A stretch of DNA of 64,000 bases, taken from Marsupella aquatica (lineage: Eukaryota; Plantae; Marchantiophyta). Of this stretch, positions 3,001 through 54,476 are shown one piece after another. The stretch is from contig OZ316893.1 in NCBI GenBank assembly GCA_973895155.1, forward strand, positions 28,220,210 to 28,284,209, read 5' to 3'. The stretch's first letter is position 1. The number at the start of each line of letters is the position of its first letter. Both the position numbers and the translations under genes were made by a program. The notes beneath the pieces are model-generated. The model had not been told where the DNA came from. It was given only the letters and a program-made list of their open reading frames with translations, and ran no database searches.

Positions 3001-3985
3001 TATGCATCGAGATACTTACAATTTTATTAAGACCTGTGATCCCTATCAAAGGATCGGGAAGCCCACTGCTAGTTCCAAATGGCCTCTTACGCCTATCCTT
3101 CCGTTGGCACCATTTGAGAAATGGGGGATTGATTTTATTGGCCCAATTTCTCCAGCAGCTCGGAAAAGCCGAAGCAAATATATTATTCTGGCCACTGATT
3201 ATGCCACCAAATGGGTAGAGGCGAAAGCTACTCGCAAGAATGATGCTATAACCGCAGCTGCATTTCTCTTTGAGCACATTATCACCCGGTTTGGTTGTCC
3301 TTTGGAGTTGGTAAGCGATAGGGGTTTGCATTTTCTTAACTCAACTATTGAGTTAATCACTGACCTTTATCTTATCAAGCATCGCAAAACTACTCCTTAC
3401 AACCCCCGAGCTAATGGCTTAACCGAGAGAGCTAATGGCATTATGGGCAAGATTCTGAATAAAATGGTAGAATCTCACAAGACAGATTGGGATGTGAAGC
3501 TCCATTCTGCATTATGGGCTTACCGCACCGCTGAGAAGATTACAACTCTTCACACCCCCTTCTATCTGACCTATGGCCTGAATAGTATTATTCCAATAGA
3601 ATTTTCGTTACCAACGGAACGTATCTTGGTACCACACCGACTCTCTCCTTCAGATAGTCTCTCACATCGGTTTTCCAATATTGTTAAATTAGAAGAAGTT
3701 AGACTTTTAGCATTAGACCATACAGTCACCATTCAGAACCAGCGTAAACTTGCTTATGATAAGAAGCTGCGCGTAGTGCAGTTAGATGTTGGTGATTTAG
3801 CATTAGTCTTTGATTCTCGTTATATGCTATTTCCTGGGAAACTTCATACTCATTGGATTGGTCCTTACCGAGTTACACACATCTGGGATAATGGTTCAGT
3901 TTCATTGACTACCTTAGATGGTCACCCACTTAACACTAGAATCAATGGGTTTAGGATTAAACGGTACTATGAGTCTTCCATTTAG
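2..3985 (+). pseudogene. pol: Gypsy-1 gag C-terminus/pol polyprotein (protease, RT, RNase H, integrase), disrupted
   Basis: ORFs 194-1012 (VPVDGGASVN, LLGRPW) and 1178-3985 are in one frame with stops between them. RT motifs CQDFRKLN, LDGYSGYNQ, MPFGLCNAP; the catalytic motif reads FIDN rather than FIDD. RNase H DSS..REALA..TDH; integrase WGIDF, SDRG, NGLTER, GPY. Confidence 0.95.
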
Positions 3986-4007
3986 AATTCCACTTGGGAC
4001 AGGTTGC

Positions 4008-4023
4008 AATTTAAGTGGAGGGC
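4008..4023 (+). promoter_or_regulatory. Internal (upstream) polypurine-tract copy
   Basis: AATTTAAGTGGAGGGC, identical to the LTR-adjacent PPT at 7495-7510, 22 nt after the pol stop codon. Confidence 0.8.
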
Positions 4024-4119
4024 GGTAGTTATACTTAGTTAGAATTAGTGACCCTCCCTAGTAAGTATTCGGCATATTTTTATTTTTTATTTTTTTTAGT
4101 TACTTCCAGTTTTTACATT

Positions 4120-4310
4120 GGACGCTGTGAAAAGCGTCCATTGTAACTCGACGCTGGGGAAGCGTCCACTTAGTTTACAAAGGACGTTGTGCAGAGGTCC
4201 GCTTTTGTATTAGTTCAGTTGCATGAGACGCTGTGAGCCGATGACTAGGCGTCTTGTACAATGGCGGATTGCGATAGCTCAACGGGACGCTGAGGAGTAA
4301 GCAGTCGCGC
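4120..4310. repeat. Array of palindromic GACGCT-N(4-7)-AGCGTC motifs upstream of the accessory ORF
   Basis: GACGCTGTGAAAAGCGTCC and GACGCTGGGGAAGCGTCC plus about three degenerate copies; the same motif recurs in the LTR. Confidence 0.75.
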
Positions 4311-4372
4311 TTCGCCCTAGTTCACTATGGAACACGATTCTCACTGAGCTTACGGAGCTAACAAGTCACGCG

Positions 4373-7300
4373 ATGGCGGAGACTGAGCTGACGACGCGAC
4401 CAATACTCGCAGACATTCCATCGAATGCAGTGCATAGGCGGCAGTTGAAGACGGCTCTGGCAAAAATGGGCTTGAAGAAGCTGCTTCAACTTCCTTGGAA
4501 GATTTGCGAATTCAGCCTTATCGATCAAGGTGTCTGGGACGCTGAAGAAAGGATTGGTGTGCGCTCGCGTCCCAGTGTTTGGACTGAAGCGCTCATAGCG
4601 AAGGTCTATTCGACGCCGATGGAGGGCGAGGATTTACAGAGGGTTGATTGTGAGCCTCGGGTTTATGTAGAATCCTTCTTCGCTCCAGGATCTTTCAAGA
4701 GGCGGAATGGATGGCTAGCGGCGGACTGCTTAGATAATTCTCTGCAGCGTCTATTTTGATTTCTGGCACCAATTTTCTACCCAGAAAGCCAGACGCGCAT
4801 CACTCTTTCGTTCGCTGCAACGGTGATCTGTTCATTAGAACAGACGCAGTCTATCAATTGGACGAAGGTTTTGCACCGAGTAATTCATACTCAGGTCAAA
4901 AATTTTCGTAGCAGGCTGAAAACGGGGAAAATAAGGTGTACCTACTTGGCCCCTTATTTAGCTCACATTTACCATAAGTATGACTGTCTGCTTGTCTTGG
5001 AAAAAGATTTTTATCGCAACAATCAGAGAGCATCTACCGGTGAAGCAAATTATATGCCTGAAGTACGAGAAGTCCGAGCCAATTCCACAGTGGTAGAGCT
5101 ATGTGCAATACTCGACTGTGAGGAACCTGAACTGGTGGGTGAAGTTTGGAAATTGAAAGAGACAAGAGCATCAGCTGAAGGGAGTGACGATCCGATTCTT
5201 CACCAACCAAGAGAGGCTCAAGTTGCCGAAGATGTTCCTTCAGCAATGCCAACAGGGTTGGAGCATTCTATGTCACCTCGACTCTCGTGTTCACCTTGTG
5301 CTGCCGAGCCTATTTATGATGTTGATCAGGATAATTCTGCTTCTCGGATGAATGTTGAAGATGAGGTGAGGGTGGATGAAGAAGGTTTTTCAGGGGAACC
5401 TCTTCAACATTCTACTGCTGAGGACGAGTATGATGGATTTACTTCTACCCCTGTTTTGGTTCCCATAGAGGCAAATAGTGATGCTTTGCAGGCTTTACAG
5501 GAGTATGATTCGTCCGACTCTCTTAGTTCTAGCCCAAATATAGGTGAAATCCCTCTGGTCCAGGAGTCAGAAATATTAAGCTCAGAAATTGTGAAGCTGG
5601 TTAAAGTTGATTCGGAGGATGCAATTGTGGATATAGACGAAGTAGGTGAACCAGTGACTTCTCCCCAATCTGTCGCAAGATACCCTGCCTGGTCTACACC
5701 TGGTTCACTCATATCGATTCCTTTGGATATAACTAAGGAATTAGATGAGGCAATAGCCGCGATAGGAGCTCCTTCATTTCCGCCTGTAAAATGGGTTTCT
5801 CCTGAAGATGAGTTGATTGAAGGAGGCTCTGCTGGTTTTCCGAGTCGCAATCAGGTATCTGGTAATATGGGTATATCTGTACCCATATTGGTACCCGAGA
5901 CACCCGCTTCGACAACCAGCTCAGCACCAGTTTCATTGGCTACAAACGAGGATAAAAACATTCGGGAGGAGTTTTCAGTGACGTATACTCGAAAATCTTG
6001 GAAACGGTTGCGCCATGCTATCAGTCGACAGATCTTTCCTGAAGCATCTTCCCAGGATTTTGAACAGGGAGAAGCACCTATCGGAACAGACGAGCTACCC
6101 CTTCCTGTACTTTTGGCAGATCGAACTAACCAGGAAGTCTCTTTACCTAGCGATAATTTTAAAGAAGAACTTCCTGTTTTAGTACCAATGCATCCCACTG
6201 CAGATCAACCAGCTACTGTTGCAAGAGAAGAATTTGAACCACTGGAGCCCGAACCTTCTGCTCCTTCGTCTCCTGTTACATTGCCAATTCGACCAGTTAA
6301 GGAGTCAGTGATTCCTTCCGCTATGCCAGATGTAATTTTCCGTTGGATAGGAGCACCAAGTGATGGAGAAGAAGACGAAGACCCTCGCATTATCAGAGTA
6401 CCTCCTCGACTTCGGCATACAGTGGATTTGCCACCCCGAAATCCTATCCCTAATTTGGCTTCAATTCACAGGTGGGAGAAGAAACATTTTCGAGTAGCTT
6501 TTCGACATCTGGAGATGGAGAGCATTTTGCAGCAGCAGCAGATTTTGCCAATGACATCCCATCCGAGGATTCGTAGTTTGATTCGCACATATGAACCTGG
6601 GAAGGCGGTTCCTCCCATTGATAAGGACAGACGACATAAGTTTTCGGAGTTCGAAATTTGGTGTTGGGTGTATATGCTTCGACGAGCTCAAGCTCCATTT
6701 CCGCCCCTTGTGCCGGAAATTCCATGGCCCTATCCATACTATGTTTGGGTTTGTCCTGGTGGGTTTGCTATTCCAATTAAATATGAGAAGAAGCTTGTTA
6801 AGCTAAGGGAGCAGTTGATTACAAAACAATGTATGCTACCGGCTTCCCAAGGGTTCAAGTCGCTTAGGTGTTTAGCGTTCCTACCTATTATTCCTTCTTA
6901 TCCGGATGTGATTATTCAAGGTGTTTTATCTAGGACACAGATTTGAAGGACACCATTTATGAGAGATATCAAACGGTGTTGTCATTTATATGTATATAAG
7001 CCGTTACTTTTGCAGCATCCTGCAATTGTTTCCTTCTTTCTCCTTCGAATTGATATTTATCTGCTCATGTGGGACATCAAAGCTACTATGGATTGTTGGA
7101 ATTCTTTACCCCGTGCTTTCCAACATTCCTTTGAAGGCAAGATCAAACTGGGAGGACATGCTATTCAACACTTTGTTATTGATCCAGGCTCTCGAATTAA
7201 TTTCCTCTCCCACAGACTGTGCCAGCAATTTGTTCATCAAGAAGTACAACCGATATCTGCTCAGATATCAATCGATGGACGAATCATTAATCTTTGGGGA

Positions 7301-7435
7301 AGAGTTAAAGGAGTCCCAATACAGATCGGAGAAGAATTCCATGACCTCGATTTTTATATTCTGGATTCGGATATCTCCCAACTCCCGTCAATGATTTTGA
7401 GCACTACTTGGATTATTAAGCCAGAATATTATTAA
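4373..7435 (+). pseudogene. Gypsy-1 accessory ('env-position') ORF, ~1020 aa: Athila-accessory-like core, acidic/Pro linker, unknown domain, C-terminal retropepsin-like domain
   Basis: ORFs 4373-4759, 4823-6946 and 6959-7435 share one frame, split by TGA stops at 4757 and 6944. N-terminus GLKKLLQLPW..LIAKVY..NGWLAADC; C-terminus FVIDPGSRINFLS...DFYIL...MILSTTW. Confidence 0.75.
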
Positions 7436-7494
7436 TGAAGAACATGTCACTCGCTTCTGATTCAATTCGGTCATGTCTTGTGGGGACACGGCGA

Positions 7495-7510
7495 AATTTA
7501 AGTGGAGGGC
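7495..7510 (+). promoter_or_regulatory. Polypurine tract of Gypsy-1
   Basis: AATTTAAGTGGAGGGC followed by TA and the LTR start TG at 7513. Confidence 0.88.
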
Positions 7511-7512
7511 TA

Positions 7513-8903
7513 TGTGGTATGGGTGTCCCTGCAATTTTTTCTGGAAACTTGTTTATTTTTAGCATATCACAAGATTTACTTACACTTTAGACACCTTCCG
7601 GCCAACATTTACTTGTTCTGGACACTTATAGAAATATTTGACATCTCCGGCTTTCCTGACGATTCCTAGTGTACTTTGCCCGACGCTGTGACCAGCGCCC
7701 GTTTCTTTTACTCAAGACGCTGCGGAAGCGTCCAACCTCCTCATGACGCTTTTGGCAGCGCCCGACCGCCACCAAGACTCTATGAGGATTTCGACCGACG
7801 CTGTGGAAAGCGTCAGCTTCAACACACGACGCTGTGAGCAGCGTCCACCCTAGTATTGACGCTGTGAGCAGTGTGAGCAGCGTCCGTTGGTTTTACTTAA
7901 GACGCTTCTAGCAGCGTCCAGATTCTCCCGACGCTTCTAGCAGCGTCCGCTCAACACTTAGTTTTTGAAGTAGATTACTAGTAAAGTAGTATTCTACCAC
8001 CCTTGTTGAAGTACTTATGCTGTGCTTCTCCCTTGTTTAGTTTTAAGCTTGGAAAGGCACGACTGTTCTTACCTCCTCCATTTTAGGATTCCAGCACTTA
8101 TAAGACAGAGTAGAATGCTCATTTGAAGTAGAGAGAAATAGAGTTAATACTGTATTCAGAATTGAGTCTTCTGAATAGTTTTCTCCTCCTTCCATTGTAA
8201 CAAGGCATGCTGTGAGTGTTTTGTATGGAAGTAAAGCTATATTGATTGAAGTTAAGATTGAATTCAAGAGATTCCTGTGGTGATTGAATTCAGTTGCAGA
8301 TTTCTGAAACTCGTATTGAATTCACTGCTAGGCTTGCTTGCAGAGTCGGGATTCGCTAGCCAATTCAAGAATAGTTAATGATAAATGAGAAGTAAATTCT
8401 GATTCTCAGAGTAGTTAGTACTGTTGCTTTGATTCTGGAATATGGTTTAGAGTTTGACTGAATTGTGTATCGCTGATGTCAAACCATGTTGACGGCATTT
8501 TAAATCATATCATTCATTTGCAATCAGAAAGCTTCTGCTTCATCAGATTGAGAATTCCATTATCATTAACCTTTGTGTTTTGAAGAGTGAGATGGATGAA
8601 TTATGAGATAGATTTCATGTCTATACTGAGCCCAAATCCTTTCTGAAGGAGTGGCAGTAGCAGCTTGTAGTCTCTAAATCCTTACTCATTTCTTCTCTAA
8701 TTCATAAATCAGAAGTTCAGTTACTTTGTTGTTTGTTTATTCGATTTTTTTTATTGAGAAGTGAAGTCAACATAGAGCTCAAGACTCTAAATCACTCGGA
8801 GTGATAAAAGTTATACAATTCATTCTGAAATCTGTTCTTAAAGGGATCGAAACCCTGGTTTTAGGTGAGAAGAGTCACTTTTGATACTTAGCACTATACG
8901 ACA
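7513..8903 (+). repeat. 3' LTR of Gypsy-1 (~1.39 kb)
   Basis: Starts 2 nt after the PPT; imperfect terminal inverted repeat TGTGGTAT / ATACGACA; non-coding; family-A sequence begins right after it. Confidence 0.85.
7680..7950. repeat. Array of about 8 palindromic GACGCT...AGCGTC motifs in the LTR U3
   Basis: For example GACGCTGCGGAAGCGTCC, GACGCTGTGGAAAGCGTC, GACGCTGTGAGCAGCGTCC, and GACGCTTCTAGCAGCGTCC twice. Confidence 0.85.
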
Positions 8904-9862
8904 TCCGTGTTGATCTCTTGTTCTCCTTGTCATGGCCGAGAGCTACAGCCTCCTTCTCCTCGGCTTCGGGACTTGAGGCTCCTACATACATCCGGACTCC
9001 CGGCTCGTGTTCCGGCCTCCTTCTCTCCTTGACCCCAGTAAAGGGGTTTTCCCTTGTAAGCCGGCTTAGGCCCACCTCTGGAGCAGTGTCCTGCATTGGT
9101 GCCGTTGCTGTTGCCGTTGCCGTTCTCTTTTCCTTCTCCAACAATTTCAGCAGATTCTGCATGCGTGGTTGCTGCATCGGCAAGTCCTCCGTTCTTGGCC
9201 TAAACACCTGCTCGATTGTAGGACTGTCGGGCGGGTTGGGTTTCTTCGTTGCCGGCCTCTGTTCCGGAACCTCCTCTAGTGCCCTTGCCTGTAGGGGAAG
9301 TACCGGGGCAAAGGTCTTACTTTGGGCATACCGGCATAGTAGCGGTACGTGATAGCCAAGCCGGGACACGCTTCCCTTGCCGATCACCAACTGTTCCTCC
9401 GTCAAGATCTTCTTTAGTTGAGTGAGGAGGTAACCATTGTAGTCCCGGCTTGGGTCTGGCCTCTCTGCTAGATAGACCTGTGCCTTGCCGATCTCTGGTC
9501 TCGGCCAGTTGCAATGCATGGTCACCCGCAAGAAATCGATCATCTCTTCTATATGTGGGTTGGTGCAGGTGTTTCGGAAGAAGCCATTCTTTGTTGAAGG
9601 CCCAGGAAACGACCGGAACTCCTTGTCTGGCAAAGTCTTCCTGGTATCTACCTTGGTCTTATTGCCCTTCGGCAAGCCAAACACTTCGGCAATCACCTGG
9701 GGAGTGAGATAGAAATCCTTCCCATACACCCTTGTGGAATTGGTCTCGGACTCCCATGATCCCACGAATTCTAGTAAGTCTGAATCCGGCACCTCTGGCT
9801 TCAGCCACGGTAACCTTACAAAGGCTTCCAAGCCGGATCCGGCCATGAAGCCCTGGTATTTC

Positions 9863-12800
9863 TGTGATGCCTAGCCAGGAATTACTCGGCCAGTTAAGTG
9901 GGTAAAGCAGGAATGCACCCTAGAAACACCTTAGTATAGGGACAAAACAAGGAAAATATAAACAATTAGGGGTGACTATGGAACCCGAGCCGAGGCCGGA
10001 GGTAAGGACGCTGGGGGTGAAAACTCGATTAGGGTTAGGGCGCGCTAAGCGTCGGCGGCTAGGAAGGATCAACGGAAGGAAGGACCGGAAGAGGAGAGGG
10101 GTAAGGACCGCTCGCGAGGAATAGTGGCTCATTTGCAAGAACGAATTGGGCAGACGACTACGGGAGGCCAAATGCTGTCAGCTGCTTAGACAAGCACTCG
10201 GGGTGGGAATAGATACCAACGATCGACTCAAGGAGGGTATGAGCAACGTCAATCAAGCAGCACATTTTTGGGGATGCCTGTTCAAACGGGCAACTGAGTA
10301 CATCAAGACTTACGAGGATGAAGAATCAAAAAGGGCAGCTCGAGAACGAAAGGAGCTCGCTCGATTGTGGAAGCTGCAGAAGACGGCTTTTCTAGGAGGC
10401 GAACTCATCAAGGCCGAGTTCTTGTGGACTCCTACTTCCAATCAGCTCAACGATCTTCTGTTTTGCGAAGACAGAATCATCGGCATTCGAGAGGCCATCA
10501 AGAACTGCAATGACATACACTGGGAATTGAAGGGTAGCACGGAAAGGTGGACCCAGGCAACGGTGCTAGGAGAAACCTCCACGGCAGCAGAGATGAAGAG
10601 GAAGGGAGCCGTCAACGATGAAGCTACCCCGACAAAAAGAACGAGGTCGGCGGCACCAAAGAAGCCAGCCGAGCAGCAGAGCAGGAGGCAGGGAGAAGCC
10701 GAAGAGGAGGAGGTCGATCCCATCAATGCCATTCCAACCAGGGATGACACCTGGAAAGGCTGGGCGGCAACCCTACCAGTGGAGGTGCAACTACATTTTG
10801 CACGGGAGGAGGATGCATGCTTTACGGCCATGCAGACCAAGAAGTACCAAGGCTTCATGGCCGGATCCGGCTTAGAGGCCTTTGTAAGACTACCATGGCT
10901 GAAGTCGGAGGTGCCGGATTCAGACCTATTAGAATTCATGGGGTCATGGGAACCCGAGACCAATTGCACGAGGATATATGAGAAGGATTTCTATCTTACT
11001 CCCAAGGTAATTGCCGAAGTGTTTGGCTTGCCGATGGGCAATAAGACCAAGGTTGATACCAGGAAGACCTTGCCTGACAAAGAGTTCCGGTCGTTCCCCG
11101 GGCCATCAACGAAGAATGGCTTCTTCCGGAACACCTACACCAACCCGCACATAGGAGAGATGATCGACTTCTTGCGGGTGACCATGCATTGTAACTTGCC
11201 GAGGGCAGAGATCGGCAAGGCACAGATCTATCTGGCGGAGAGGCCAGACCCAAGTCGGGACTACAACGGGTACCTCCTCAACCAATTGAAGAAGATCTTA
11301 AAGGAGGAGCAGCAGGTAATCGGCATGGGGAGCGTGTCGCGGCTTGGCTATCACATGCCGCTGTTGTGCCGGTATGCCAGAGGTAAGACCTTTGCCCCAG
11401 TACTTCCCCTGCAGGTAAGGGCACCCGAGGAAGCTCCAGCACCAAGGCCGGTAGTAGAGAAGCCTCAACCACCTGTTAGCCCTACGATTGAGCAAGTGTT
11501 TAGGCCAAGGAAGGAAGACTTGCCAATGCAGCAACCAAGCATGCAGAATCTGCTGAAAATGTTGGAGAAGGAAAAGACGGCACCGGCACCGGCTTCGGCA
11601 GCGACACCAATACAGGACACTGCCCCAGAGGTCAACCTAAGCAGACTTAGAAGGGAAAACTCCTTTACCGAAAACAAGGAGAGAATCAGGCCAGAATCCA
11701 AGCCGGGTGTTCGAATGTACGTGGGAGTCTCAAGCTCTGAATCTGAGGCAGAATTGCCTGAAGCTCCTACCGACGAAGAGGAGAGGGAGAAGCCGGAAGT
11801 CCAAGAAGTAGAGGAGGCAGTGGAGGACTGCAGCCATGATAACTCCGGCTATGGGTCGGACCATCACGTTCCAGGAGTAAGGACTTGTGGCCGGTTTATC
11901 CCTTCACTTCCAAGGGTAGTACGAGGGGACCCCAACCAGCAGAGTAGCCCTGAGTCTCCCCCACTAGATGTTGCTCCCCCGAGCTTTGACGACATAAAAC
12001 AGCCGGCACAGGAATTTCAGGAGCGAATCAGGCAGGAAGAGGAGGCAGCCCTGGCTAGGGAAAAGGATTTGCCAGGAGGAGATTGGCCGGAGGACATCAG
12101 GCGGCTAGCCGAAAAAGGAAGCAAACCTCTAGCCATGATTGAAGAGATCCGCAAGACGGCTTGGGAGCAGAGGCCGCGATGGACGATGCCGATCACTTCT
12201 ACTTACTCCACCTACGCTAAGAATAGAGCCATGGAGTATGGTGAGATATGTGGGGAACTTGCACTCGGCATCTTTGGGGAGGAGTTGGAGGTAGGACCCT
12301 TTTTCCATAGGGAGCAGTTGGAGAAGCACCAATTATAAGAAGCGGTGGCTTTAGAGAGAAGCAAGAAGGACGAGGTCATCCGACGGCTTAGGAGGATGGA
12401 AGCCGAGATTGAAGATCTAAGGGCGGCCAAGAAAGCCCAAGATGAACTGCGGATTAAGCGGCATGAGCTAAACATCATGCAGGGGCAGTTGGACACCGCG
12501 CAGGCTGATAATCAGATTATCAAGGATAAACTGACTCAGACCCAGGGAGAATTGGCCGACGCAATCAAAGAGAGGGAGAAGTGGAAGCGAGAGTTGAGGA
12601 ATACAGAGGAGGCCCACATAACAGCCAACAACCGGGCCATGGCGGAGACCCAAAGAAAGGAATGGGCGCTGAAGGGAGAGCTCGAGAAAATCCGCGGAGC
12701 CCTTGAGCAGAAGGAGGCCGAGTTAGGAAAATCCTATCAAGGGATTATTGCGCTACAGCAGGAGCTTGCGTCCCTGTCGGCCAGCTTCAAGGCCGACCTG

Positions 12801-14554
12801 CAGGAGAAGGATGCCCAGCTCGACCAGACTTATGCCAAGATGAATAACATGGAGTCTGAGGTCGTACCAGAGCTCGACAAGGAGCTAAGAGCAACCTAGG
12901 AGGAGTGGGCTACCACCAAGAAAGAATTGGAGGAAGCCCACAGGGAATTGGAGGAAGCCAAAAACAAACTGGAGGAGGCACGTAAGGACCTGGATGAGAC
13001 CCAGGAGGACTTGGAGGAAATCACGAGGAAGATGGAGAACCTACAGCGGCGGGCCGACAACCAAACTGAGCGGCTGAAGAAACAAGCCGCAGTATTTAAA
13101 TGCTTAGCTGCATCAGGTCCATCTCCCGTTGGGGCAAACCAGTTACCAGGGGTGGTAATTGCCGAAGGACCAGCCGTGACAGACGGCCCGGTGCCGGACG
13201 TTGGCGGCAAAGGGAAGGAACCGGCTATGGAGATAGTGAAGAAGAAGAAGCAGAAACCTTCGGGGTCCGGAGGTTATTCGACCCCTCAAGCCGTACTCAA
13301 ACCAGCACCAACCTCCGGCATGAACACGGCAATAGATTCCGCTATCACCAAAGGTGGGGTGGCGCGGCCCAAGCCGAACTACTCAGTAATGAGGCCGGTA
13401 TCCCAGATCCACCTCTTGAGCAGGCCGGGGAGACAGTAGCCGAAGCTGAGGCTGAAGCCGAGGCTGAGGCCATAGCCGAGAATGATTTCCGAGCTGATGC
13501 CAAAGCCGAGGGTGGGCCCAGTCAGGCCGATGAAAAGTTGACTTGGTTAGAGGCAGGTAATCTGTCAGAGGACGGACCAACGGCAGTGGTTGCGGAGGGA
13601 GCGTTGGGGACGTCCATTGAGGATCCACCACCGGTGTCGTGACGGTGCAAGGGCGCCGTTCCTTTTAGGAAGGGCGGACGTGGAGGTAGGAGGCGTGAGT
13701 GGGCAGGGCGGGCGCTGATCTCCAAGTTTAGGATCAGGACCAGGAGCGGCCCTGACACTTAGCTTAGTGGGATTGCGGTTCCACTGGTAGGAGCAACACT
13801 TGTGCTCCTGCCTTGCTGTACATAGGTAGATTCGGGCAGGTAGATTACTGTTAGGTAGATTAGGCTTACGCTGCAAAGAATTAGGCAGATCCACTACCAG
13901 GATAAGTACCTGGGCAGCGGGGAGCTTAGGGCCTCTTCTTTAGCAAGTTTTTAGTTTGCACCAGCCGGGCTGGGATCAAGTAGTAAGAGAAGCTCTCGGT
14001 TAGTCATACCATGACCTTGTGTATATTCATGTTTCCTCATGCCTAAGAGCTGAATAGAGTTGGCCTCACGGCTTAGTTCGCAGAGCTTGTGTATGAGATG
14101 TACTGTTTGTATGGCAAGTGCATGGTGTGACTCAGACAAAAGGAGTCATTTTGCTATTTGTGTGTCGCATTAACTTGTGTGAAGAGTGCCCACATCAACC
14201 AACAGAGGAAGGAAAGTAAGCAGGGGAGTGAGAGTTGGATGTGTCGAGCTGAGAGAGGTCTTAGCGGCTTAACCAAGCCTATTGGGGATCATTCCGGCGG
14301 CGGAATCCAAACATACCTAACCAAAAGGAGAGGAAGACAAGGGAAGGCCTAGATTAGGCCGGCTACGTATCTCATGACCCGATGAAGGATCTGTCCAGTA
14401 TATGTGTGTAAAAGGCTAATAGTAATAGTAGAAGGAGGTTAGCAGTGTCCCATGCCGCTAAGCCGCGGAAACGGCCTCGCCAAGCGCGAAACCCGCGGGA
14501 ATCGGCTTGTGAGGGGGGGTTTCTTGGGTTTAGGGAGCCATGGGACGCACCACA
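9863..14554 (+). mobile_element. Family-A unit, copy A2 (4692 bp): TG...CA-bounded, single ORF, no paired LTRs
   Basis: Ends TGTGATGC...GCACCACA; TSD ATTTC at 9858-9862 and 14555-14559; left and right ends are not direct repeats. Confidence 0.93.
9978..13642 (+). pseudogene. Family-A ORF (~1200 aa): unknown N-domain, accessory core, Pro/acidic linker, coiled coil, basic NLS-like tract
   Basis: ATG at 9978 (MEPEPRPEV) is in frame with ORFs 10146-12338, 12345-12899 and 12927-13439. A late frameshift leads to ...EDPPPVS. Collinear with the A3 ORF. Confidence 0.85.
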
Positions 14555-15537
14555 ATTTCTGAGTCTGCATAGCCGTAAAGCATGCATCCTCCTCCCGTGC
14601 AAAGTATAATTGCACTTCCTCGGGGAGAATCGCCGCCCAGCCTTTCCAGGTGTCATCTCTTGTTGGAATGGCATTGATGGGGTCGACCTCCTCCTCCTCG
14701 GCTTCTCTCTGCCTCCTGCTCTGCTGTTCTGCTGGCTTCTTTGGTGCCGTCGACCTTGTTCTTTTTGCCGGGGTGGCCTCTTTGTTGTTGTTCCCCTTCC
14801 TCTTCATCTCGGCTGCCGTGGATGTCTCTCCTAGCACGGTTGCCTTTGTCCACCCCTCCGTGCTACCCTTCAACTCCCAGTGTATGTCGTTGCAGCGTTT
14901 GATGGCTTCGCGGATGCCGATGACTCTGTCTTTGCAAAACAGCAGGTCGTCTAGCTCGTTGCCAGTAGGCATCCACAGGAATTCAGCCTTGATGAGTTCC
15001 CCTCCTAAGAAGGCAGCTTTCTGCAGCTCCCACAATCGGGTGAGCTCCTGCCATTCTCGAGCTGCTCTCTCTGATTCTTCGTCCTCGTAAGTCCCAATGT
15101 ACTCAGTTGTCCGTTCGAACAGGCATCCCCAAAAATGTGCCGCTTGATTGACGTTGCTCATACCCTTCTCGAGTTGATAGTCGGTATCTGTTCCCACCCT
15201 GAGCGCTTGCCTAAGCAGTTGACAATAGTTGGCCGCCCGTAGTCGCCTGCTCAGTTCGTGCTTGCAAATGAGCCACTATTCCTCGCGAGCGGTCCTTACC
15301 CCTCTCCTCCTCTGGTTCTCCCTCCCGTTGGTTACCCCTAGCCGCCGGCACTTAGCGTGCCCTAACCCTAATCGTGTTCTCTCCCCTGGCATCCTTACTT
15401 CCGGCCTCGGCTCGGGTTCCATAGTCACCCTTAATTGTTTATATTTTCCTTATTTATGTAACTATACTAAGGTGTTTCTAGGGTACACTTCCCTTTTCCC
15501 CTTAAACTAGCCCAGTGATTCCTGGCTAGGCATCACA

Positions 15538-15779
15538 ATGTTGCAGATCCTAGGGCATGGAAGGAGATTGATACAACCATTGATCCAACATTTGAAGCAA
15601 AGCCTCGCAATGTACACCTTGGATTGGCTCTGGATGGTGTGAAGCCCTTTGGGGAAAACAACCTCAAGCACTTACGTGGCCTGTTGTATTGTTGAATTAC
15701 AATCTGCCCCCTTGGTTGTCCACCAAGAAGTTCTTCATTATGTTATCTTTGCTGATCCCTGGGCTTGATTCAGTGACTG
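15538..15779 (+). pseudogene. CACTA TnpD (Transposase_21/TNP2-type) fragment 1
   Basis: Translates VADPRAWKEID..DPTFEAKPRNVHLGLALDGVKPF...WPVVLLNYNLPPWLSTKKFFIMLSLLIPG. Confidence 0.9.
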
Positions 15780-16632
15780 TGTCACGTCGTCAGCCTAGGC
15801 CTTAACTTGGGCTTCGGCTTAGACAGGTACATCCTTTGTCAATATGAGGGTTCAGGCAGGGAGGGAGGCACGAAATGCACCTAACTCACATAAACTAGCG
15901 CTAAGTGCGCCTATTGTCATATACGGACACCTCTTAGGTATGGTTTGTGTTCCGCCGCCAGAACGTACCTCAGTCGATAGCAGGATTGACGCCGGCTTAC
16001 GGGCTTCTAAGCCTTCATGTTGTCCGCCTTCGATCCGGATTCGATGGTATGGGTACTCAACCCGGGCTTGCAACCACGTACCCGCAAGCTGCACCCCGTG
16101 CACGACTTGGGTAGTGCGTTCGGCCAAGCGTTGGCACCTATACACAAGATTCACACATACACATACACACAAGCATACAATCTTGATTTACACGAAGGAA
16201 TAATGGGAAAGGATTTTACTACATAGGAGACATATGCGTACACTTAGGTGTTGACCCGAAAGCTCTGGAATGAATGTGACGCCGCTGGTACGGCGGTTAA
16301 TGAGTGATTCAGTGTAACTGCGCTCGGCACGCGCGTTAGGTGGGTCTTAGGCCGCTATTATTAGCATAACAACAGTATTTAGGTAATCATTAGGGGTAGG
16401 ACATCATTAGGCAATAAGGGGGACTTCAGGTTCGGGCTGGCGGCGGGTCGCTATTCGCACATCCGGATTACGAGCATGGAGGGGCCCCTCCCTCGGGTCC
16501 GTATAACGAACTTAAGGAAGCGGCCACTGACGCACGCTGACTCAGACCGGCGGAGTGGCCGGTACACCACAAGCGTGAGCGGTTCAACCTATGGGCGTCG
16601 AGGAGACGTCGGGGATCGACAAGCCCTCAAAG

Positions 16633-16639
16633 TATAAAA
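16633..16639 (+). promoter_or_regulatory. TATA box upstream of the family-B ORF
   Basis: GTATAAAAGG is kept in all four B copies (also 23372-23378 -, 58108-58114 -, 59368-59374 +). It lies ~100 nt before the ATG and is followed by a CT-rich leader. Confidence 0.65.
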
Positions 16640-16740
16640 GGGGAGCCAACCCTTTGTAGTGCACCAGTCCATCAGTCCGCGCGCCAGCTTCGACCCCAGC
16701 TCTCTCGTTCTCTCTAGGTCGCCACTACTATCTCCTCTGA

Positions 16741-19401
16741 ATGTCGCACACGATCCTCTCCAGCTTGGCCATTCGATTCTGGACGCAGTTCCTATCTACC
16801 GGAAGGCACTTGGCCGATTCATTGAAACACGCCAACCCACGCCAATACGAGATCGAACGCGAATACAAGAGAGCCATCCGCCTAGCAGGACGACACCACT
16901 ACGTCCTTAACTTTGACTACCCGTCTCAGAGCGAGCTTTAGCGACCAGCTGAGGTATCTGGGTACTTCTTCAACGGAGACAAATATATCGGGTTCTGGGA
17001 AGCATTGTTTTGGCTTCCGGACGAGGTCTTCAAAATCCCGGGTACAATCAACCTGCAGCGACATCACTTCGACCACATCCCTGCCCAGGTTCGGGCTGTC
17101 ATTAACGGCGAGTCCAGTACCAACCGTTCGACAGGGGCGTCCGCACTCGCTTCGGAGAACTTCTACCAGCACCTGCAGAGCTTCATGGGAACTCGACCAT
17201 CAACCAACGTGACCAACTCAGCCGGACCCGTACCCGTACCCGTACCCGTGCCCATGCAACCCCAGCCTCAACCTCAGCTTCAGCTTCAGCCTCAGCCTCA
17301 GCCGCAGCCTAGCCAAACCCCACCACCTATCACCCAGCCAGCACAGGTACGCTCTGTCATCAACGCTGTGGATCTTAGCGATGACGACGAGGCTACCCCA
17401 CCCTTGACCAGGCGGCCCAGAGGAACAAGCGCTCGGGGGGCCGACACTATATCGTCCCCACCCCCTGCTCTGACCCCAGGAGCGGCCCCAGCAGACAACA
17501 TAGTGACCATGGCCGCCCCGGGCCCGTTACCAACCGCAGTGGCACTCCCTAGGCCCGATTAGGAGGATGGGGAAGTATCACCTTCCCCGAGTCAGTCACG
17601 GGGAAAGAAGAGGAAGGAATCCGCCACTGCATCCGGGTTACCGTTGGCCACGGTAGCCGTAGCCAAGGTGACGATGCATCGCATGGGGGAAAACGTTCAT
17701 AGCAACATCCTCCATCCCAAGCATGCGGTGTGCCTGAAGACTCAGGGATTTGAGCACCTCGCCTCTCTCCCCTGGAACACTTGCAGGTACTACGGGGAGG
17801 ACATGACAGAATTCGTCAAGAATTATGACGACGTACGTCAACAGACTCGGCTGCGGGGAAGGAATATGTCCCTCACAGAGGAACGGCTCAAGATGATCTT
17901 CGGGTTACCCGAAGGTGACCATCGAGTCGAATCACGGGCTCCCAGAGGCAAGGGGGCCAAGTACCAATCTTCAAGTTTTCCCTCAGAGGGATCAGTAGAC
18001 AACGGGTTCGTGATGAGGACCTGCCTCATGCCCGAGATAGCTGAGCGGCTGGAGTTCCAGAGGTACGCTCTCCACATGATGGAACCCCGGGGGGAGATCT
18101 CCGCCGCCCAGGTTATCCAGGTCGAGAACTATCGACCTAGGAAATGGGCGTCGTACTTCGCTAAGAAATTCCATGAAGAGATGGAGCGGCGAAGGAAGAC
18201 GCTATACATTGGCGGGAAGGCGTATTTCGCTAGCCACATCGAAATCATTCTTGAGTGGTACGCCCGGTTTGATCGACGAACCCTTCCCCGCATCAACGTT
18301 ACAAAGCTAGTCCCAGCTAGGTGGGTTTTTCCGGCATTGGAGAGACGGCCCCGACCCGAGGCCCGAAGTCCAGTGGACACGCCAGCTTCACCCACCCCAC
18401 CTCCACAAATAGCTGTAATCGTAACCGAGGAGGCGCCGGAGGGGTCGGTCGTCGCAACCGTTGATGCGACCCAACTAGCCGGGCTAAGTACAGAAGTTGG
18501 TACGGCAGAGGTCTTACCCGAACCCGGGTCTCCCAAGGACCCGCCGGTGGCAATTCCGGAGAACCGGACATCGCTGCAAGAGGACACTCCAGCCCCTTCC
18601 AACGTTATGTCCCCAGGGCTGGACGTCACTGCCCCGGCCCCTGCGCGTGTTGATGTTTGCCCGTGCCCAAATCTGGACAGGCACAACTTGGACCACCCGG
18701 AACTCTTCGTACAGGGTACGTTTCTGAACGGGCTTCTGGGAGATTTCTCTCATCAAATTGCCCGGGATACCGGGGAGTTCATGGCCCGGAAGGTAGCCTG
18801 TTTCTTCAATCAGGAGTTGGTTGCCGCCGTAAAGGCAGGTCGGGCCCAGTCGGAGGCCCTTCAAAGGATAGAGCGGTACCGGGTGGAGTCCGTGTACCTA
18901 AAGAACAAAGTGGCGGCTCAAGAGGCTGAGCTTCTGCAACTACGACCCAAGGTTGCAGCCGCCGATGAGTTGTTAGCAAAGGCGTACGCTCTTACCGCCC
19001 TAGCCGAACAGGCCAAAGCTAGGAACGAGGCCGAGATTACACGACTCCGGAACCAGATTGACAGTTTGAAGAAACAAGCTATCACCTGGCAGAAAGACCT
19101 GGAGGAGGCCGAGGAGCGAGCCCAGCGGGACGCGATGGAGATAGCCACGCTGCAGGCCGAGATGGCGTGGCTCCAAACCGAGGCCGAGAAGCAGGACCAG
19201 CTGGCGGGTAAACTGACGAGCGATGCCCAGCAGCTGGAGGAGGCATGTCAGGAGGCAGCAGAGGAGACGGACGTGGCGAGGCGAGAGAACGAATCTCTGC
19301 TGGACCAGGTCCAGCTCCTCAAAGCGGACAATGACAGGCTTCGAAGGCAGCGGGATGGCCGTTCCCATTCGGGCGGCTCTGGCAAGCGTGCCAGGCATTA
19401 G
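16741..19401 (+). pseudogene. Family-B ORF (886 aa): unknown N-domain, PV/QP repeats, accessory core, coiled coil, C-terminal GKRARH
   Basis: ORFs 16741-16941, 17005-17562 and 17644-19401 are in one frame, split by two TAG stops that are sense codons in B3. Confidence 0.88.
17226..17311 (+). repeat. Coding hexamer repeats (GTACCC)n and (CAGCCT)n
   Basis: Encode PVPVPVP and QPQPQP; the QP tract is shorter in B3 (about 57460-57520). Confidence 0.8.
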
Positions 19402-20702
19402 CGGCGGAGTAGGAATAGATTAGGATTAGGATTGGCTTAGTCAGGCTCTTGGGACAGGCACCTGCCTTAGGTACAGCAGCGCTGCCCTGCTGTCCAGCCT
19501 GCGTAGATTAGGATCTTCTAATAAGACACAGCCGTTTTCCGGCCTGACTGTCAACTTAGTTAGGACCTTAGTCAGCGAATCTTTGGCGAGAGGACACCCC
19601 GTCCCTCGGCTCTTAGTATTTAGTGCACCCCTCGGTAGAGGCAGGGGGGGTTTTTAGTTTCAGAGTCGGACATCCGCGGGACATGCGGGGAGTCCCGACC
19701 TCTGGGAATGACAGAGTACCAAGGGGAGGGGGTAGGACTAAGCTCGCCGGGCGAGTGCGGAGCCGGGCTCCGTTGTAGTGTGCACCCTCGGCCTTGAACC
19801 TGTGCATTCCAGGGCTGTCGTGTCAACTAAGTGTACGCATATGTTCCCTTTGTAGTAAAATCCTTTCCCATCATTTTCCTTCGTGTAAATCGAGATTGTA
19901 TGCATGTGTGCGCATATGTGTGTGGGTTTCTCGTATATGGGTGGCAGCGCCAGGCCGAACGCACTACCCGAGACGTGCATAGGGTGCAGCCTGCGGGTAA
20001 GTGGTTGCGAGCACGGGTTGAGGACCTGTATCATCGAATCCGGATCGAAGGCGGACAGCACGAAGGCTTAGAAGCCCTTAAGCCGGGATCGATCCTGCTA
20101 TCGACTAAGGTACGTTCCGGCGGCGGAACACAAACCATACCTAGGAGGTGTCCGTATTTAGCAGTATGCGCACTTAGCGCTAGTTTACGAGAATAAGGTG
20201 CATTACGTGCTTCCCTTCCTGCCCGAACCCTCAGATTTACGAGGGATGTGCCCGTCTAAGCTGAAGTCTGAGTTAAGGCCGAAGCCTACGACGTGACAAT
20301 GAACAGGTCCGAGGCCGAGGGTGTACACTACAATGGAGCCCGGCTCCGCACTCGCCCAACGAGCTTAGTCCTACACCCTCCCCTTGGTACTCTTTCACTC
20401 CCAGAGGTCGGGACTCCCCGCACATACTGCGGATTCCAACACTGAGACTAAAAATCCCCCCTGCCTCTACCGAGGGGTGCACTAAATACTAAGGGCTGAG
20501 GAACGGAGTGCCCTCGCGCCCAAAGATTCGCTAACTAAGGTCCTAACTAAGTTACCTGTCAGGCCGGAAAATTGCTTGTCTTATTAGAACATCCTAATCT
20601 ACGCAGGTTGTACAGCATGGCAGTGTTGCTTTAACTAGGGTAGGTGCTTGTCCCTATAGCCTAATTTAGCTACTCCTACTCTATTTTAATCGTACTCTGC
20701 CG

Positions 20703-23273
20703 CTAATGCCTGGCACGCTTGCCAGAGCCGCCTGAGTGGGAGCGGCTATCCCGCTGCCTTCCGAGCCTGTTGGCGTCCTGCTTGAGTAGCTATACTTGGT
20801 CCAGTAGAGATTTGTTCTCCCACTTCACCATGTCTGCCTCTTTCGCGGCCTCCTAGCATGCCTCCTCCCGTTGCTGGATGTCGCTCGTCAGCTTATCCAC
20901 CAACTGGGCCTGTTCTGTGACTTCTCCTTGAAGCCGCGCCACCTCTGCCTTTAGGGTGTCAATCTCGGCTGTGTCCCATTGAGACCTGGAGTCAGCTTCC
21001 TCTAGATCCTTTTGCCAACTGACGGCTTGCCCCTTCAAACCGTCAATCTTGGTCCAGAGCCGCACGATCTCGGCGTACTTTCCGAGCCCAAGATGTACTG
21101 CTAACGTTGCTTGGGCCCTAGCCTCGGCAACCTGGTCCTCCGTGGCCGTTACCTGAGGCCGTAGTTGCTGGAGTTCAGCCTCCAGGGTTGCCACTTCGTC
21201 CTTCAGGTAGGTAGACTCAACCCGATATCGCTCTATTCTCTGCGTTGTCTCTGCATGCGCATGTCCTGCCCTTACAGCCGCAACCAACTCCTGGTTGAAG
21301 AAGTAGGCCACCCTCCGAGCCATGTATTCCCCGGTGTCCCGAGAGATCTGTTGCAAGAAATCTCCCAACAACCCGTTCAGAAATGTGCCCAGCACAAAGA
21401 GTTCCAGATGGTCTAGACAGTGCGGGAGTGAGAGTGGACATATCCAGCCCTTGAGGTAAGTCGGTCGAAGGGGCTGGTTCCACTAGAGGCAAGCGGTTCT
21501 CCTGCACGACCGCGGGGGGTGGCAGAATCCCCTCGGCTACCGTGGCATCTGCTTCGGGTATGGCTTCATCTGGCCCGGCTTCGATTACATTGTCCCGATT
21601 GATCGCGTCTAAGGTTGCGATAACGTCAATGGGTATGCCTGGCGGGGCGGCAGCGGCGGGTTGCGAGGTCGGGTAGCAGGGCTTGCAGCTGCCAGACTTT
21701 GGGCCTCGGGCTGCGGTCGCCTCACCTGGGCTGGGAACACCTATTTTGGCGGGGTCAGCTTGGGCTCGTTGAGACGCAGGAGGCTCTAGTGGTCGAAACG
21801 AGCATACCACTCGATGATGATTTTGATGTGGCTAGCGAAGTACGCCCTTCCGCCAAGATACAAAGTCTTCCTTCTCCGCTCCATCTCCTTGTGGAACTTC
21901 TTGACAAAGAAGGACGCCCACTTCCTGGGCCGATAGTTCTCCACTTGGATGACCTGAGCGGCCGATATTTCTCCTCTGGATTCCATCATGTGGAGGGCAT
22001 ACCGTTGGAACTCTAGGTGTTCTTCTACCTCTGGGATGAGGCATGTCCTTATTAAGAACCCATTGTCCACTACCCCCTCGGCCGGGAAGCTAGATGACTG
22101 GTATTTAGCTCCCTTGCCCCCAGGAGCCCGTGATTCTACCTGGTTTATCCCCTCGGGTAAGCCGAAAATCATCTTCAGATGTGCCTCATTGAGACACATC
22201 ACTCTCCCGTGCGCTCGGGTTTGTTGACGGGCCTCGTCAAAGTTCTGAATGAACTCCGTCATATCCTGCCCATAGTACCTACTTCCGTTCCAAGGGAGAG
22301 AGGCGAGGCGCTCAAACCCTTGGGTCTTCAGATAGCATGCATGCTTGGGGTGGAGGATGTTCTTGTGAACGTTGTCTGCCATGCGATGCATGGTCAGCTT
22401 GACTACCGCAACCGTGGCCAAAGGCAACTCGGATACGGCTGCGGGCTCCTTCCTCTTCCTACCCCGAGACTGATTCCCGGGGTGACTAGAAGAGGGGGAC
22501 ATCTCTCCATCCTCTCGGTCAGGTGGTGGTAGCGCGATTGCCGTGAGTATTGGTGCCGAGGCTGCTAGAGTTAACGTGTTATCCCCTTGGGCTTGCTGGA
22601 GTGGTGCTGGGTTGTTCGGTGCTTGTTGAGTTGTACCCCGCGGCCGTCGATTCAGAGGAGGGTGAGCCTCCTCGTCTTTGGAGCGAATATTCACCGCATT
22701 TACCACAGATCATACTTGGAGAGGTGGTGGGACCGGTGGCGGGGACCGGCTTGACTGAGGCCGAGGAGGTGTAGGTGCGGGTACGGGCACGGGTTGGTCG
22801 GCACTGGTCACTGATGGTAGAGTTGCCATGAAGTTCTGCAGGTGTCGGTGGAGGTTTTCCGAAGCAAGTGAAGATGGCCCTGTCGACCGGGCAGTGTTGA
22901 ACTTGCTATTGATGATAGCCCGGACCCGAGCGAGGATGTGGTCGAAGTGGTGCCGCTACAAGTCGACCGTGCCCGGGATTTTGAAGACCTCGTCCGGAAG
23001 CCAAAGCAATGCTTCCCAGAAGCCAATGTATTTGCCTCCGTCGAAGAAGTACCCTGATACTTCTTTGGGTCGGTAAAGCTTGCTCTGGGACGGGTAATCA
23101 AAGTTAAGGAGATAGTGGTGTCGTCCTGCTAGGCGGATGGCTCTCTCATATTCGCATTCGATCTTGTATCAGCGCGGGTTGGCGTGTTTCAATGAGTCAG
23201 CCAGGTGCCCTCTGATAGACAGGAACTGAGTCCAAAATTGTATAGCCAAACTAGAAAGGATCGTGTGCAACAT
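20703..23273 (-). pseudogene. Family-B ORF in B1, degenerate
   Basis: Fragments 21786-22706, 21217-21810 and 20853-21395 align with the B2 protein; several stops and frameshifts. Confidence 0.85.
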
Positions 23274-23746
23274 TCAAAGGAGATAGCAGGTGACTAAGGA
23301 AAAGCGAGAGAGTCGGGGTCGAAGCTGGCGCATGGACTGAAGAACTGGTGCACTGCAAAGGATCGGCCCCCTTTTATACCCTGAGAGCTCGTCGATCGCC
23401 CGACGCCTCCTCATCACTTATAGGCCGAGCCTTTCACGCTCGCAGTGTACCGGCCCCTTCTCCGGTCCGGGTCAGCTCGTGTCAGTGGCCGCCTCTCGGA
23501 GTTCGTTATACGGACCCGAGGGAGGGGGAAAGGGGGCCCATTACACGCTCGCAACTCGGGCGTGCAAATGGCGACCCGCCGCCAGCCCAAACATGAATTC
23601 CCCTTATTGACTAATGATTTCCTACTCATAATGGCTACCTAAATACTATTGTTATGCTAATAATAATGGCCTAAGATACCCCTAACGCACGTGCTAAGCA
23701 CGATTAGACCGAATCACTCATTATGTGCCATACCAATGGCGTCACA

Positions 23747-31382: not shown

Positions 31383-32044
31383 TGGGGCCAAACAAGGAAG
31401 CAAGAACTGTCCTTCACAGCTTCATGGGGTGAAGAGGACACAAGGTCTTGCAAAATTGCCATACTGGTCAGTGAGTAAAATCACACTGGCATTCACCTTT
31501 TTTACTTTAAGATATTGCATAGTACCAGCATTGTACACACATGTCAATTTGCAGTTGGACTGATCTGCTTTTTGTTGTTTGGATGCAGAAACTTCTGATC
31601 AACCATGTGCTGGATCCCATGCACACAGAGAAGAACATTGCTCAGAATTTGATTCACACTACTTCTGGGAAGAAGGATACCACTACTGTGCGGAATGATA
31701 TGGAGGCTGAAGGCATTCATGAGCAGGTGTGGATGAAGCCTCATCCAAACAATAAGAAGGACCATTTTGTGAAGCCCAGGGCGCCCTATGTGATGAGCAA
31801 ACCAGAGCTGGAGAAGTTCCTGGGCACTTTGAAGAACTTGAAGGTTCCCACAAATTTTGGTAGCTCATTGGCAAAGTGTGTGAGAGCCAGCAATAAGTTG
31901 GATGGCCTCAAGTCTCATGACTACCATTGCCTCATGCAACAGATACTTCCCTTGGCATTGAAGGACTTGATGGCAACAGGACCTCGTATGGCTATCATTA
32001 GTGTGTGTTGTGTGTGGCGTAAAATTTGTTGTAAGGTCTGGGAC
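31383..32044 (+). pseudogene. CACTA TnpD fragment 3 (with a probable intron at ~31471-31588)
   Basis: HGVKRTQGLAKLPYW, GTGAGT...CAG, then LLINHVLDPMHTEKN...GLKSHDYHCLMQQILP. Confidence 0.88.
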
Positions 32045-33971: not shown

Positions 33972-33987
33972 TAGCCCCCTACTTAAG
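33972..33987 (-). promoter_or_regulatory. Polypurine tract of Gypsy-2
   Basis: CTTAAGTAGGGGGCTA on the minus strand directly before the LTR; resembles the Gypsy-1 PPT. Confidence 0.88.
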
Positions 33988-34011
33988 TGTGTAGCGTCCC
34001 CGCAAACACAC

Positions 34012-39969: not shown

Positions 39970-40075
39970 GCCACTCACAATCACCTTCTTATCTCCCTCC
40001 TCTTGAACAACCAACCTGCAAACACACCTCCAAGTCTTGTGGCTCCACTCCCACAATAAAAATTGCAAAGAGTTG

Positions 40076-40093
40076 TCCCCGGCAGCGGCGCCA
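40076..40093 (-). promoter_or_regulatory. Primer-binding site, tRNA-Asp type
   Basis: TGGCGCCGCTGCCGGGGA on the minus strand, one mismatch from the Athila-type TGGCGCCGTTGCCGGGGA. Confidence 0.88.
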
Positions 40094-40113
40094 AAAACTA
40101 GGGTGGGACTCTA

Positions 40114-54471: not shown

Positions 54472-54476
54472 CAAAT

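What the first reader, a model, noticed from the sequence alone, without database searches (positions are those of the whole stretch)
4373..18270. One protein core links three otherwise unrelated elements
Seen by manual alignment. Gypsy-1: GLKKLLQLPW..WTEALIAKVYSTP..RRNGWLAADC..INWTKVL..YLAPYL. Family A: GLEAFVRLPW..LLEF..LTPKVIAEVFGLP..TKNGFFRNTC..RDYNGYL..RLGYHM. Family B: GFEHLASLPW..MTEF..LTEERLKMIFGLP..DNGFVMRTC..RKWASYF..YFASHI. The pattern resembles plant transposon accessory domains (ATHILA ORF-1, PF20167-like, plant mobile domain), an assignment I cannot confirm without a search. Basic NLS-like tracts (GKKRK, KKKKRK, GKRARH) and no evident transmembrane helix suggest a nuclear regulator, possibly anti-silencing, rather than an envelope protein (inference).
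Basis: partly seen in the sequence, partly recalled or inferred. Interest (0 to 1): 0.72.

Follow-up and report, generated by a model that had tools for sequence, protein, structure and literature searches.

The report
Anti-silencing-like gene shared by plant retrotransposons
Three kinds of jumping DNA in this plant genome carry the same conserved protein domain, whose predicted shape best matches a known protein that frees transposons from DNA-methylation silencing, so it likely helps these elements escape the host's silencing.

Summary

Two corrections. A and B are related: they share an N-domain, a coiled coil and a 3' motif. They are 4-4.7 kb TG...CA units with 5-bp target duplications and no gag-pol, most likely solo LTRs that carry the gene.

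Carriers retain CpG; a related Gypsy without the gene is CpG-stripped (odds 0.38 vs 0.05-0.06). The Gypsy carrier has a 9-copy palindrome confined to its non-coding parts.

Best reading: a VANC/PMD-fold anti-silencing factor in bryophyte-type retrotransposons. DNA binding and demethylation are inferred, not shown.

The parts
1133..3985 (+). Gypsy-1 pol (RT, RNase H, integrase); gag end and protease lie at 2-1012
   Evidence: Pfam
4008..4023 (+). Exact copy of the 16-mer polypurine tract that also precedes the Gypsy-1 LTR, 23 nt after the pol stop
   Evidence: The 16-mer occurs at only 2 places in the window, allowing 2 mismatches
4031..4372 (+). U3-like spacer ahead of the extra ORF, with two GACGCT-N5/6-AGCGTC palindromes (4121, 4150); likely the ORF's own promoter (inferred)
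   Evidence: Local alignment to the LTR scores 45 vs at most 30 in 300 shuffles
4373..6946 (+). Gypsy-1 extra ORF, 857 codons, one in-frame stop at codon 129: core, acidic linker, conserved C-terminal domain
   Evidence: C-terminal domain found in 5 stored proteins
4445..5002 (+). Shared core domain, Gypsy type
6947..7435 (+). Second, degenerate aspartic-protease-like frame, in frame behind the extra ORF's stop
   Evidence: Asp_protease_2 E 0.024, below cut-off
7495..8870 (+). Polypurine tract (7495-7510) and the visible part of the Gypsy-1 3' LTR (starts TG at 7514; end approximate), with 7 palindrome copies at 7682-7947
8880..9862 (-). Family A copy A3, 3' piece with the core; truncated (lower end approximate)
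9863..14554 (+). Family A copy A1: 4692-bp TG...CA unit, target duplication ATTTC, inserted in A3 in the opposite orientation
10239..13642 (+). A1 ORF (two stops and a late frameshift): N-domain 10251-10553, basic tract, core 10821-11390, coiled coil, basic tail
14292..14319 (+). Palindromic motif TTCCG-N4-CGGAA...CATACCTA shared by A and B, 184-263 nt from the 3' end
   Evidence: 6 of 6 copies that have a 3' end, at most 2 mismatches
14555..15537 (-). Family A copy A3, 5' piece
15780..23746 (-). Family B copy B4, split by B1; TG...CA; target duplication GACTG (plus strand)
16275..20298 (+). Family B copy B1: 4024-bp TG...CA unit, target duplication ATGAA; TATA box at nt 359 of the unit; shared 3' motif at 20115
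16741..19401 (+). B1 ORF, 886 codons, stops at codons 67 and 274: N-domain 16768-17079, GKKRK, core, linker, coiled coil, GKRARH
   Evidence: an open 906-aa relative with the same layout (P0122) is 32% identical
17704..18270 (+). Shared core domain, B type
32039..42033 (-). Gypsy-2 with both LTRs and gag-pol only; no core domain; strongly CpG-depleted (internal control)
48373..53035 (-). Family A copy A2: TG...CA, flanks do not match; abuts fragment A4 (53036-54472)
54477..58472 (-). Family B copy B2, target duplication CAAAT (plus strand), 96.8% identical to B1
59014..62985 (+). Family B copy B3, inserted in a Gypsy pol gene; target duplication GATGG/AATGG (one mismatch)

Best explanation
The three segments are one conserved protein domain, predicted to share the fold of the plant mobile domain/DUF1985 group and VANC21, and it likely works as a nuclear, sequence-specific DNA-binding factor that shields its own retrotransposon family from methylation silencing. 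SHOWN: homology of the three cores; purifying selection; basic tracts and no transmembrane helix; VANC21 as the best structural match of two models; CpG retention in carriers but not in a related Gypsy without the gene; a palindrome array confined to the non-coding parts of Gypsy-1; TG...CA ends and 5-bp target duplications around A and B. INFERRED: the protein is made from its own promoter, oligomerises through the coiled coil (A, B), binds short motifs in the LTR and promoter of cognate copies, and lowers their methylation so that they are transcribed. Also inferred: A and B are solo LTRs of elements whose gene moved into U3. Gypsy-1 shows a possible half-way state, with the ORF between two copies of the polypurine tract and behind a U3-like spacer.
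Confidence: 0.55

Rival explanations
1. Same PMD/VANC-type fold, different job: a plain transcriptional activator, a chromatin tether that steers integration, or a factor acting on Polycomb rather than DNA methylation.
For: PMD-C proteins are reported to counter Polycomb silencing and direct DNA binding by them is still unproven (bioRxiv 2024.09.27.615353). A1, A2 and B1 each sit inside or against a copy of their own family, which steering could explain. No motif arrays in A or B.
Against: CpG retention tracks presence of the gene across the window, which points to methylation. A and B cover close to half of the window, so nesting in the own family needs no steering.
Confidence: 0.28
2. On element identity only: A and B are not solo LTRs but complete LTR-less units that are moved in trans by an LTR-type integrase and pay their way with the accessory protein.
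For: None of the 7 copies with a visible end has a primer-binding site or internal region beside it. One conserved ORF fills most of each unit. B is highly diverse and abundant in 3 of the 4 runs laid.
Against: TG...CA ends with short imperfect inverted repeats and 5-bp duplications are the LTR signature, and B's ends resemble those printed for Retrosat2/RIRE8 LTRs (PMC3485330). No terminal direct repeats and no transposase or integrase, so no route to an integrable copy is evident. LTRs up to about 5 kb are known (PMC6317226). Gypsy-1 shows how the gene could enter U3.
Confidence: 0.25
3. The domain is real but unrelated to VANC/PMD; the fold match is a common helical arrangement, and the CpG contrast reflects lineage history or insertion sites.
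Against: The match covers over 90% of both models and stands far above the next hits. Separate sequence leads point to the same group: Transposase_32, PMD and DUF1985 Atlas clusters.
Confidence: 0.12
4. An envelope-like or particle-structural protein, as the position after pol in Gypsy-1 and the coiled coils might suggest.
For: Position of the Gypsy-1 ORF; coiled coils in A and B.
Against: Highest 19-residue hydropathy 0.82-1.48 in the 4 ORFs scanned, below a transmembrane helix; basic NLS-like tracts.
Confidence: 0.04

Closest known systems
VANC21 / VANC anti-silencing proteins of VANDAL (MuDR) transposons, DUF1985 (PDB 9lnj, 9lnk)
   Same: Best structural match of both models over the whole core; transposon accessory gene; a coiled coil is modelled as the oligomerisation part in VANC (PMC13547354); clustered non-coding motifs in the cognate element (Gypsy-1).
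   Different: 9-11% identity and no sequence match; carried by LTR-type retroelements, not MuDR; relatives named from liverworts, whereas VANC is described as dicot-specific (PMC13547354); no DUF287 hit; extra N-domain in A and B.
Transposase_32 (PF20167) / ATHILA ORF-1 (PF03078) extra ORFs of Athila elements
   Same: Sense extra ORF after pol with NLS-like tracts (PMC11728184); 8 of 106 relatives match PF20167 over the core.
   Different: Best 31.8 bits vs cut-off 45; the window's own cores give no hit at E up to 1; no PF03078 hit.
PMD-coiled-coil and Transposase_28-coiled-coil extra ORFs of Tat/Ogre/Retand; host MAIN/MAIL (PMD-C)
   Same: Globular domain plus coiled coil as an accessory ORF of Gypsy elements (PMC4408406; PMC6317226).
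   Different: Those were reported from gymnosperms and angiosperms, and moss Tat-like elements were said to lack extra ORFs; no PF10536 or PF04195 hit here; they lie in the internal region, not in an LTR-like unit.
Genes inside LTRs (MMTV sag in U3; recalled, and named in earlier AI notes)
   Same: A whole ORF with its own TATA box inside a TG...CA unit.
   Different: Unrelated protein; here the ORF is 2.7-3.4 kb, and that the units are LTRs is inferred, not shown.

Membership tests
Transposase_32 (PF20167) | Pfam score at or above the gathering cut-off (45 bits) | tested here: not met
   No hit for the window's ORFs at E up to 1; 0 of 106 relatives reach 45 bits
Transposase_32 (PF20167) | Remote homology through intermediate sequences | tested here: inconclusive
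   8 of 106 relatives hit at E 1.6e-7 to 0.006 over the core region; a 7-member set holding 5 of them scores all six window cores at 36-68 bits vs 9.3 for decoys
PMD (PF10536), ATHILA ORF-1 (PF03078), DUF1985 (PF09331) | Pfam score at or above cut-off | tested here: not met
   0 hits in window ORFs and 0 of 106 relatives at E up to 0.01; Atlas leads at 0.88 (PMD on 20% of members) and 0.87 (DUF1985 on 13%) are below 0.9
VANC anti-silencing proteins | DUF1985-type fold | tested here: inconclusive
VANC anti-silencing proteins | Encoded by a VANDAL/MuDR DNA transposon | tested here: not met
   Carriers are a Gypsy element and TG...CA units; no MuDR transposase among the ORFs scanned
VANC anti-silencing proteins | Short target motifs clustered in the element's non-coding regions | tested here: inconclusive
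   Candidate array in Gypsy-1, 9 of 9 sites non-coding; none beyond shuffles in A or B; Gypsy-2 has arrays without the gene
VANC anti-silencing proteins | Sequence-specific DNA binding and induced hypomethylation of cognate copies | not testable with these tools
   Only an indirect footprint: CpG retention in carriers
Solo LTR | TG...CA ends | tested here: met
   6 of 6 copies with both ends
Solo LTR | 4-6-bp target-site duplication | tested here: met
   4 of 6 exact 5-mers, 1 with one mismatch, 1 without a match
Solo LTR | A full-length parent with two such repeats around PBS, gag-pol and PPT | not testable with these tools
   No genome held; collection scans empty; loose-end table too truncated
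Ginger-type or TIR DNA transposon (features recalled) | Own integrase or transposase and long terminal inverted repeats | tested here: not met
   No catalytic domain in A or B ORFs; no repeat between the first and last 600 bp at E below 0.04
Env-like protein | Transmembrane helix | tested here: not met
   Highest 19-residue hydropathy 0.82-1.48 in 4 of 4 ORFs scanned

The most novel reading that the evidence does not exclude
Bryophyte LTR retrotransposons carry their own VANC-like, sequence-specific anti-silencing system. In families A and B the gene has moved into the LTR itself, so abundant solo LTRs keep supplying the protein in trans. The VANC/PMD fold would then have been a transposon counter-defence tool since early land plants, older than the angiosperm MAIN genes from which VANC is thought to derive.
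Probability: 0.3. Interest if true: 0.88.

Novelty: new variant of a known kind. Interest (0 to 1): 0.7.

Why it matters
The function of extra ORFs in plant LTR retrotransposons is a long-standing open question (PMC4408406, PMC6317226). In the passages read, demonstrated sequence-specific anti-silencing proteins come from DNA transposons (VANC, TnpA, transposases). This window gives a concrete retrotransposon candidate with a structural link to VANC21, a candidate target motif, and a related element without the gene as control, so binding and methylome tests can be set up directly. If the domain is transposon-borne in liverworts, it bears on whether PMD began in hosts or in Gypsy elements, a question left open in PMC5418596. 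It may also add sequence-specific demethylation tools for epigenome editing.

Tried and rejected
Word-indexed protein searches gave nothing new: B core 0 of 313 candidates; full-length alignment 1 already-known hit of 7993 scored; long proteins 0 of 5813 (it covered only 1415-4040 aa, so fusions are barely tested). Metagenome scans: 0 of 191 pattern matches confirmed and 0 matches to the 3' motif. Viral contigs: 0 of 87. Viral structure library: no match at E 0.001. PDB sequence search: only coiled-coil noise, VANC21 not listed. Rfam over 4-24 kb: 0. No tRNA genes. No RNA holder was listed among 10 runs; this is no evidence on expression. Laying contigs on B1 showed 24 of 823 loose-end rows, none at the termini, so it could not tell solo LTR from LTR-less; what flanks A and B ends elsewhere stays open. 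The N-domain was neither folded nor matched: both folding jobs went to the cores and the Atlas was unreachable. The careful tree did not finish; the quick tree (82 rows, SH-aLRT only) separates a 32-row Gypsy-type clade (99) from a 35-row clade holding A and B (89) and flags long-branch joins, so I draw no order of events from it. 30 of 106 relatives were left out of the leave-out profiles and the tree as fragments. Rejected: envelope role; A and B as autonomous DNA transposons; A2 and A3 as the two LTRs of one element (about 84% identical, CACTA pieces between them). Not held: the VANC21 structure paper (doi 10.1266/ggs.25-00096, seen only as a reference entry) and PMC9016345; either may already discuss retrotransposon homologues. 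No supplements were read; Additional file 4 of PMC6317226 (extra-ORF groups) may bear on novelty.
Full report
SETTING. The window is a nest of plant transposons: two Gypsy elements and a piece of a third, an L1, a CACTA, and eight copies or fragments of families A and B. No genome is held. The host was not identified. Of 30 relatives looked up, 7 clusters carry a species name, all liverworts: 4 Calypogeia fissa and 3 Riccia sorocarpa. I therefore call it bryophyte-type.

1. OBSERVATION. The motifs are present. A vs B scores z about 30; Gypsy-1 vs A/B scores z 6.5-9.2 in 2000 shuffles. hhalign gives probability 98% for A vs B and 85% for A+B vs Gypsy-1. A profile of six cores found 106 proteins at E up to 0.001 among 1.84 billion. 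Of these, 76 cover most of the core and were split into Gypsy-type (31), A/B-type (38) and intermediate (7). Profiles made without any window sequence score the opposite type at 20-44 bits; the best of 1806 decoys reaches 9.5; the two sets align at probability 99.3%. The relatives were found with a mixed profile, so this is not a blind test, but the homology is not in doubt. A profile of all cores hits only Gypsy-1, A1-A3 and B1-B4 in the window.

2. THE GENE IS UNDER SELECTION. Between diverged copies the core has dN/dS 0.08 and 0.06 (B1 vs B3, B4; Ks 1.5, 1.9) and 0.10 (A1 vs A3; Ks 0.5). Other parts of the ORFs give 0.17-0.34, and shifted frames 0.67-4.4. The young pair B1/B2 gives 0.48-1.28 on few changes, as decay after insertion would. 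The four ORFs checked in full each hold 1-2 stops; an open 906-aa relative with B's layout exists (P0122).

3. WHAT A AND B ARE. They are not unrelated. A profile of six database N-termini finds an N-domain in 7 of 7 A/B copies with a 5' part and nowhere else in the window. Both end in a coiled coil and a basic tail, and 6 of 6 copies with a 3' end share a 29-nt motif. All 6 complete copies run TG...CA, 3972-4692 bp without nested inserts; 4 have exact 5-bp target duplications, 1 has one mismatch, 1 has none. They hold no gag, pol or transposase and no terminal direct repeats. B has a TATA box 108 nt before its ATG. Contigs of four runs from three studies covered all 30 bins of B1, with 306 to 11,229 contigs laid. 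These are the marks of solo LTRs, but no parent was seen, so I give solo LTR about 70%. Three earlier AI notes describe genes inside LTRs or solo-LTR-like units in other genomes; they are unchecked leads.

4. GYPSY-1 SHOWS A ROUTE. Its extra ORF lies after pol. The 16-mer before the LTR recurs exactly 23 nt after the pol stop and nowhere else in 64 kb; the spacer behind it resembles U3 (score 45 vs at most 30 in 300 shuffles). In Gypsy-2 the tract and LTR follow pol directly. So the ORF sits behind an LTR-like promoter at the place where an LTR would start. If the first tract primed plus-strand synthesis, the gene would end up in U3, as A and B appear to be built. This is inference.

6. FOOTPRINT OF ESCAPE FROM METHYLATION. 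Gypsy-1 and Gypsy-2 have pol proteins 52-63% identical and similar GC, yet CpG o/e is 0.68 vs 0.14 in pol. At codon position 3, which controls for protein sequence, the odds of C over T before G are 0.38 (Gypsy-1 gag-pol), 0.51-1.19 (A, B, extra ORF), 0.05-0.06 (Gypsy-2), 0.12-0.18 (L1) and 0.20 (third Gypsy piece, gene content unknown, interval overlapping Gypsy-1's). Gypsy-2's LTRs are 97% identical, so age since insertion does not explain it. The comparison rests on three carrier lineages in one window, and B1/B2 still decay at CG. A spaced palindrome occurs 9 times, all in Gypsy-1 non-coding DNA, and never in 40 shuffled windows, the pattern reported for VANC targets. But A and B show no such arrays and Gypsy-2 has its own repeats.

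7. MECHANISM. Most likely the protein is nuclear, binds short motifs in cognate LTRs and promoters through the core, oligomerises through the coiled coil where present, and lowers methylation so that family members are transcribed. Homology, selection, element ends, fold ranking and CpG contrast are computed. Expression, localisation, binding and demethylation are inferred. Confidence 0.55.

8. KNOWN VS NEW. Known: PMD, Transposase_28 and Athila ORF-1 extra ORFs in seed-plant Gypsy elements, PF20167 in a sunflower Athila ORF, and the VANC-MAIN structural link. It works like VANC by inference, but is not a VANC family member (wrong carrier, no Pfam match). New here: a diverged clade below all Pfam cut-offs in bryophyte-type elements; the gene inside LTR-like units; a direct structural link from a retrotransposon ORF to VANC21; and an internal CpG control. 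Ten literature searches listed no paper describing this. The library lacks most subscription journals and the VANC21 structure paper.

PAPERS. Passages found by term search only: PMC12885004, PMC11728184, PMC6317226, PMC3485330, PMC5735166, PMC13547354, bioRxiv 2024.09.27.615353 (93), PMC5418596, PMC12859917, PMC4408406, bioRxiv 2026.08.24.746577 (133). None was read whole and no supplements were read. Tanaka et al. 2026 was seen only as a reference entry. Recalled, from no call: MMTV sag details, Ginger features, the Athila PBS likeness.

VERDICT. A real, selected domain; a new variant of a known kind; interest 0.70.

Noticed in passing
window 4008-4372 and 7495-7947: Gypsy-1's extra ORF lies between two identical 16-mer polypurine tracts, and the first is followed by a degenerate U3 copy. 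Priming at the first tract would put the gene inside the LTR (inference).
   Followed up: partly
window 6947-7435: A second protease-like frame follows the extra ORF's stop in the same frame, like a gag-stop-protease layout; unexplained.
   Followed up: no
window 10251-10553, 16768-17079 and five more copies: An unnamed N-terminal domain of about 105 aa in all 7 A/B copies with a 5' part and in 7 stored proteins, absent from Gypsy-1; no Pfam match, fold not tested.
   Followed up: partly
window 14292, 15963, 20115, 48632, 54660, 62799: The only non-repetitive DNA similarity between A and B at E below 0.01 is a 29-nt palindrome-bearing motif near the 3' end; on the other strand it reads like a splice donor (AG|GTATG).
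   Followed up: partly
window 9863, 16275, 53035: A1 and B1 inserted into copies of their own family in the opposite orientation, and A2 abuts an A fragment in the same orientation.
   Followed up: no
P0046, P0076, P0093: Three Riccia sorocarpa gene models place the core next to a DDE_Tnp_4 (Harbinger-type) fragment; this may be a real DNA-transposon association or a gene-model fusion.
   Followed up: no
window 15538-48372: A CACTA element (Transposase_21, DUF4218) hosts B4/B1, an L1 with a 1179-codon open stretch of ORF2 (24435-27974) and Gypsy-2.
   Followed up: no
window 32039-42033: Gypsy-2 has 97%-identical 1.9-kb LTRs with ACCAAGG arrays and an Athila-like PBS (likeness recalled); CpG o/e 0.10-0.27.
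   Followed up: partly
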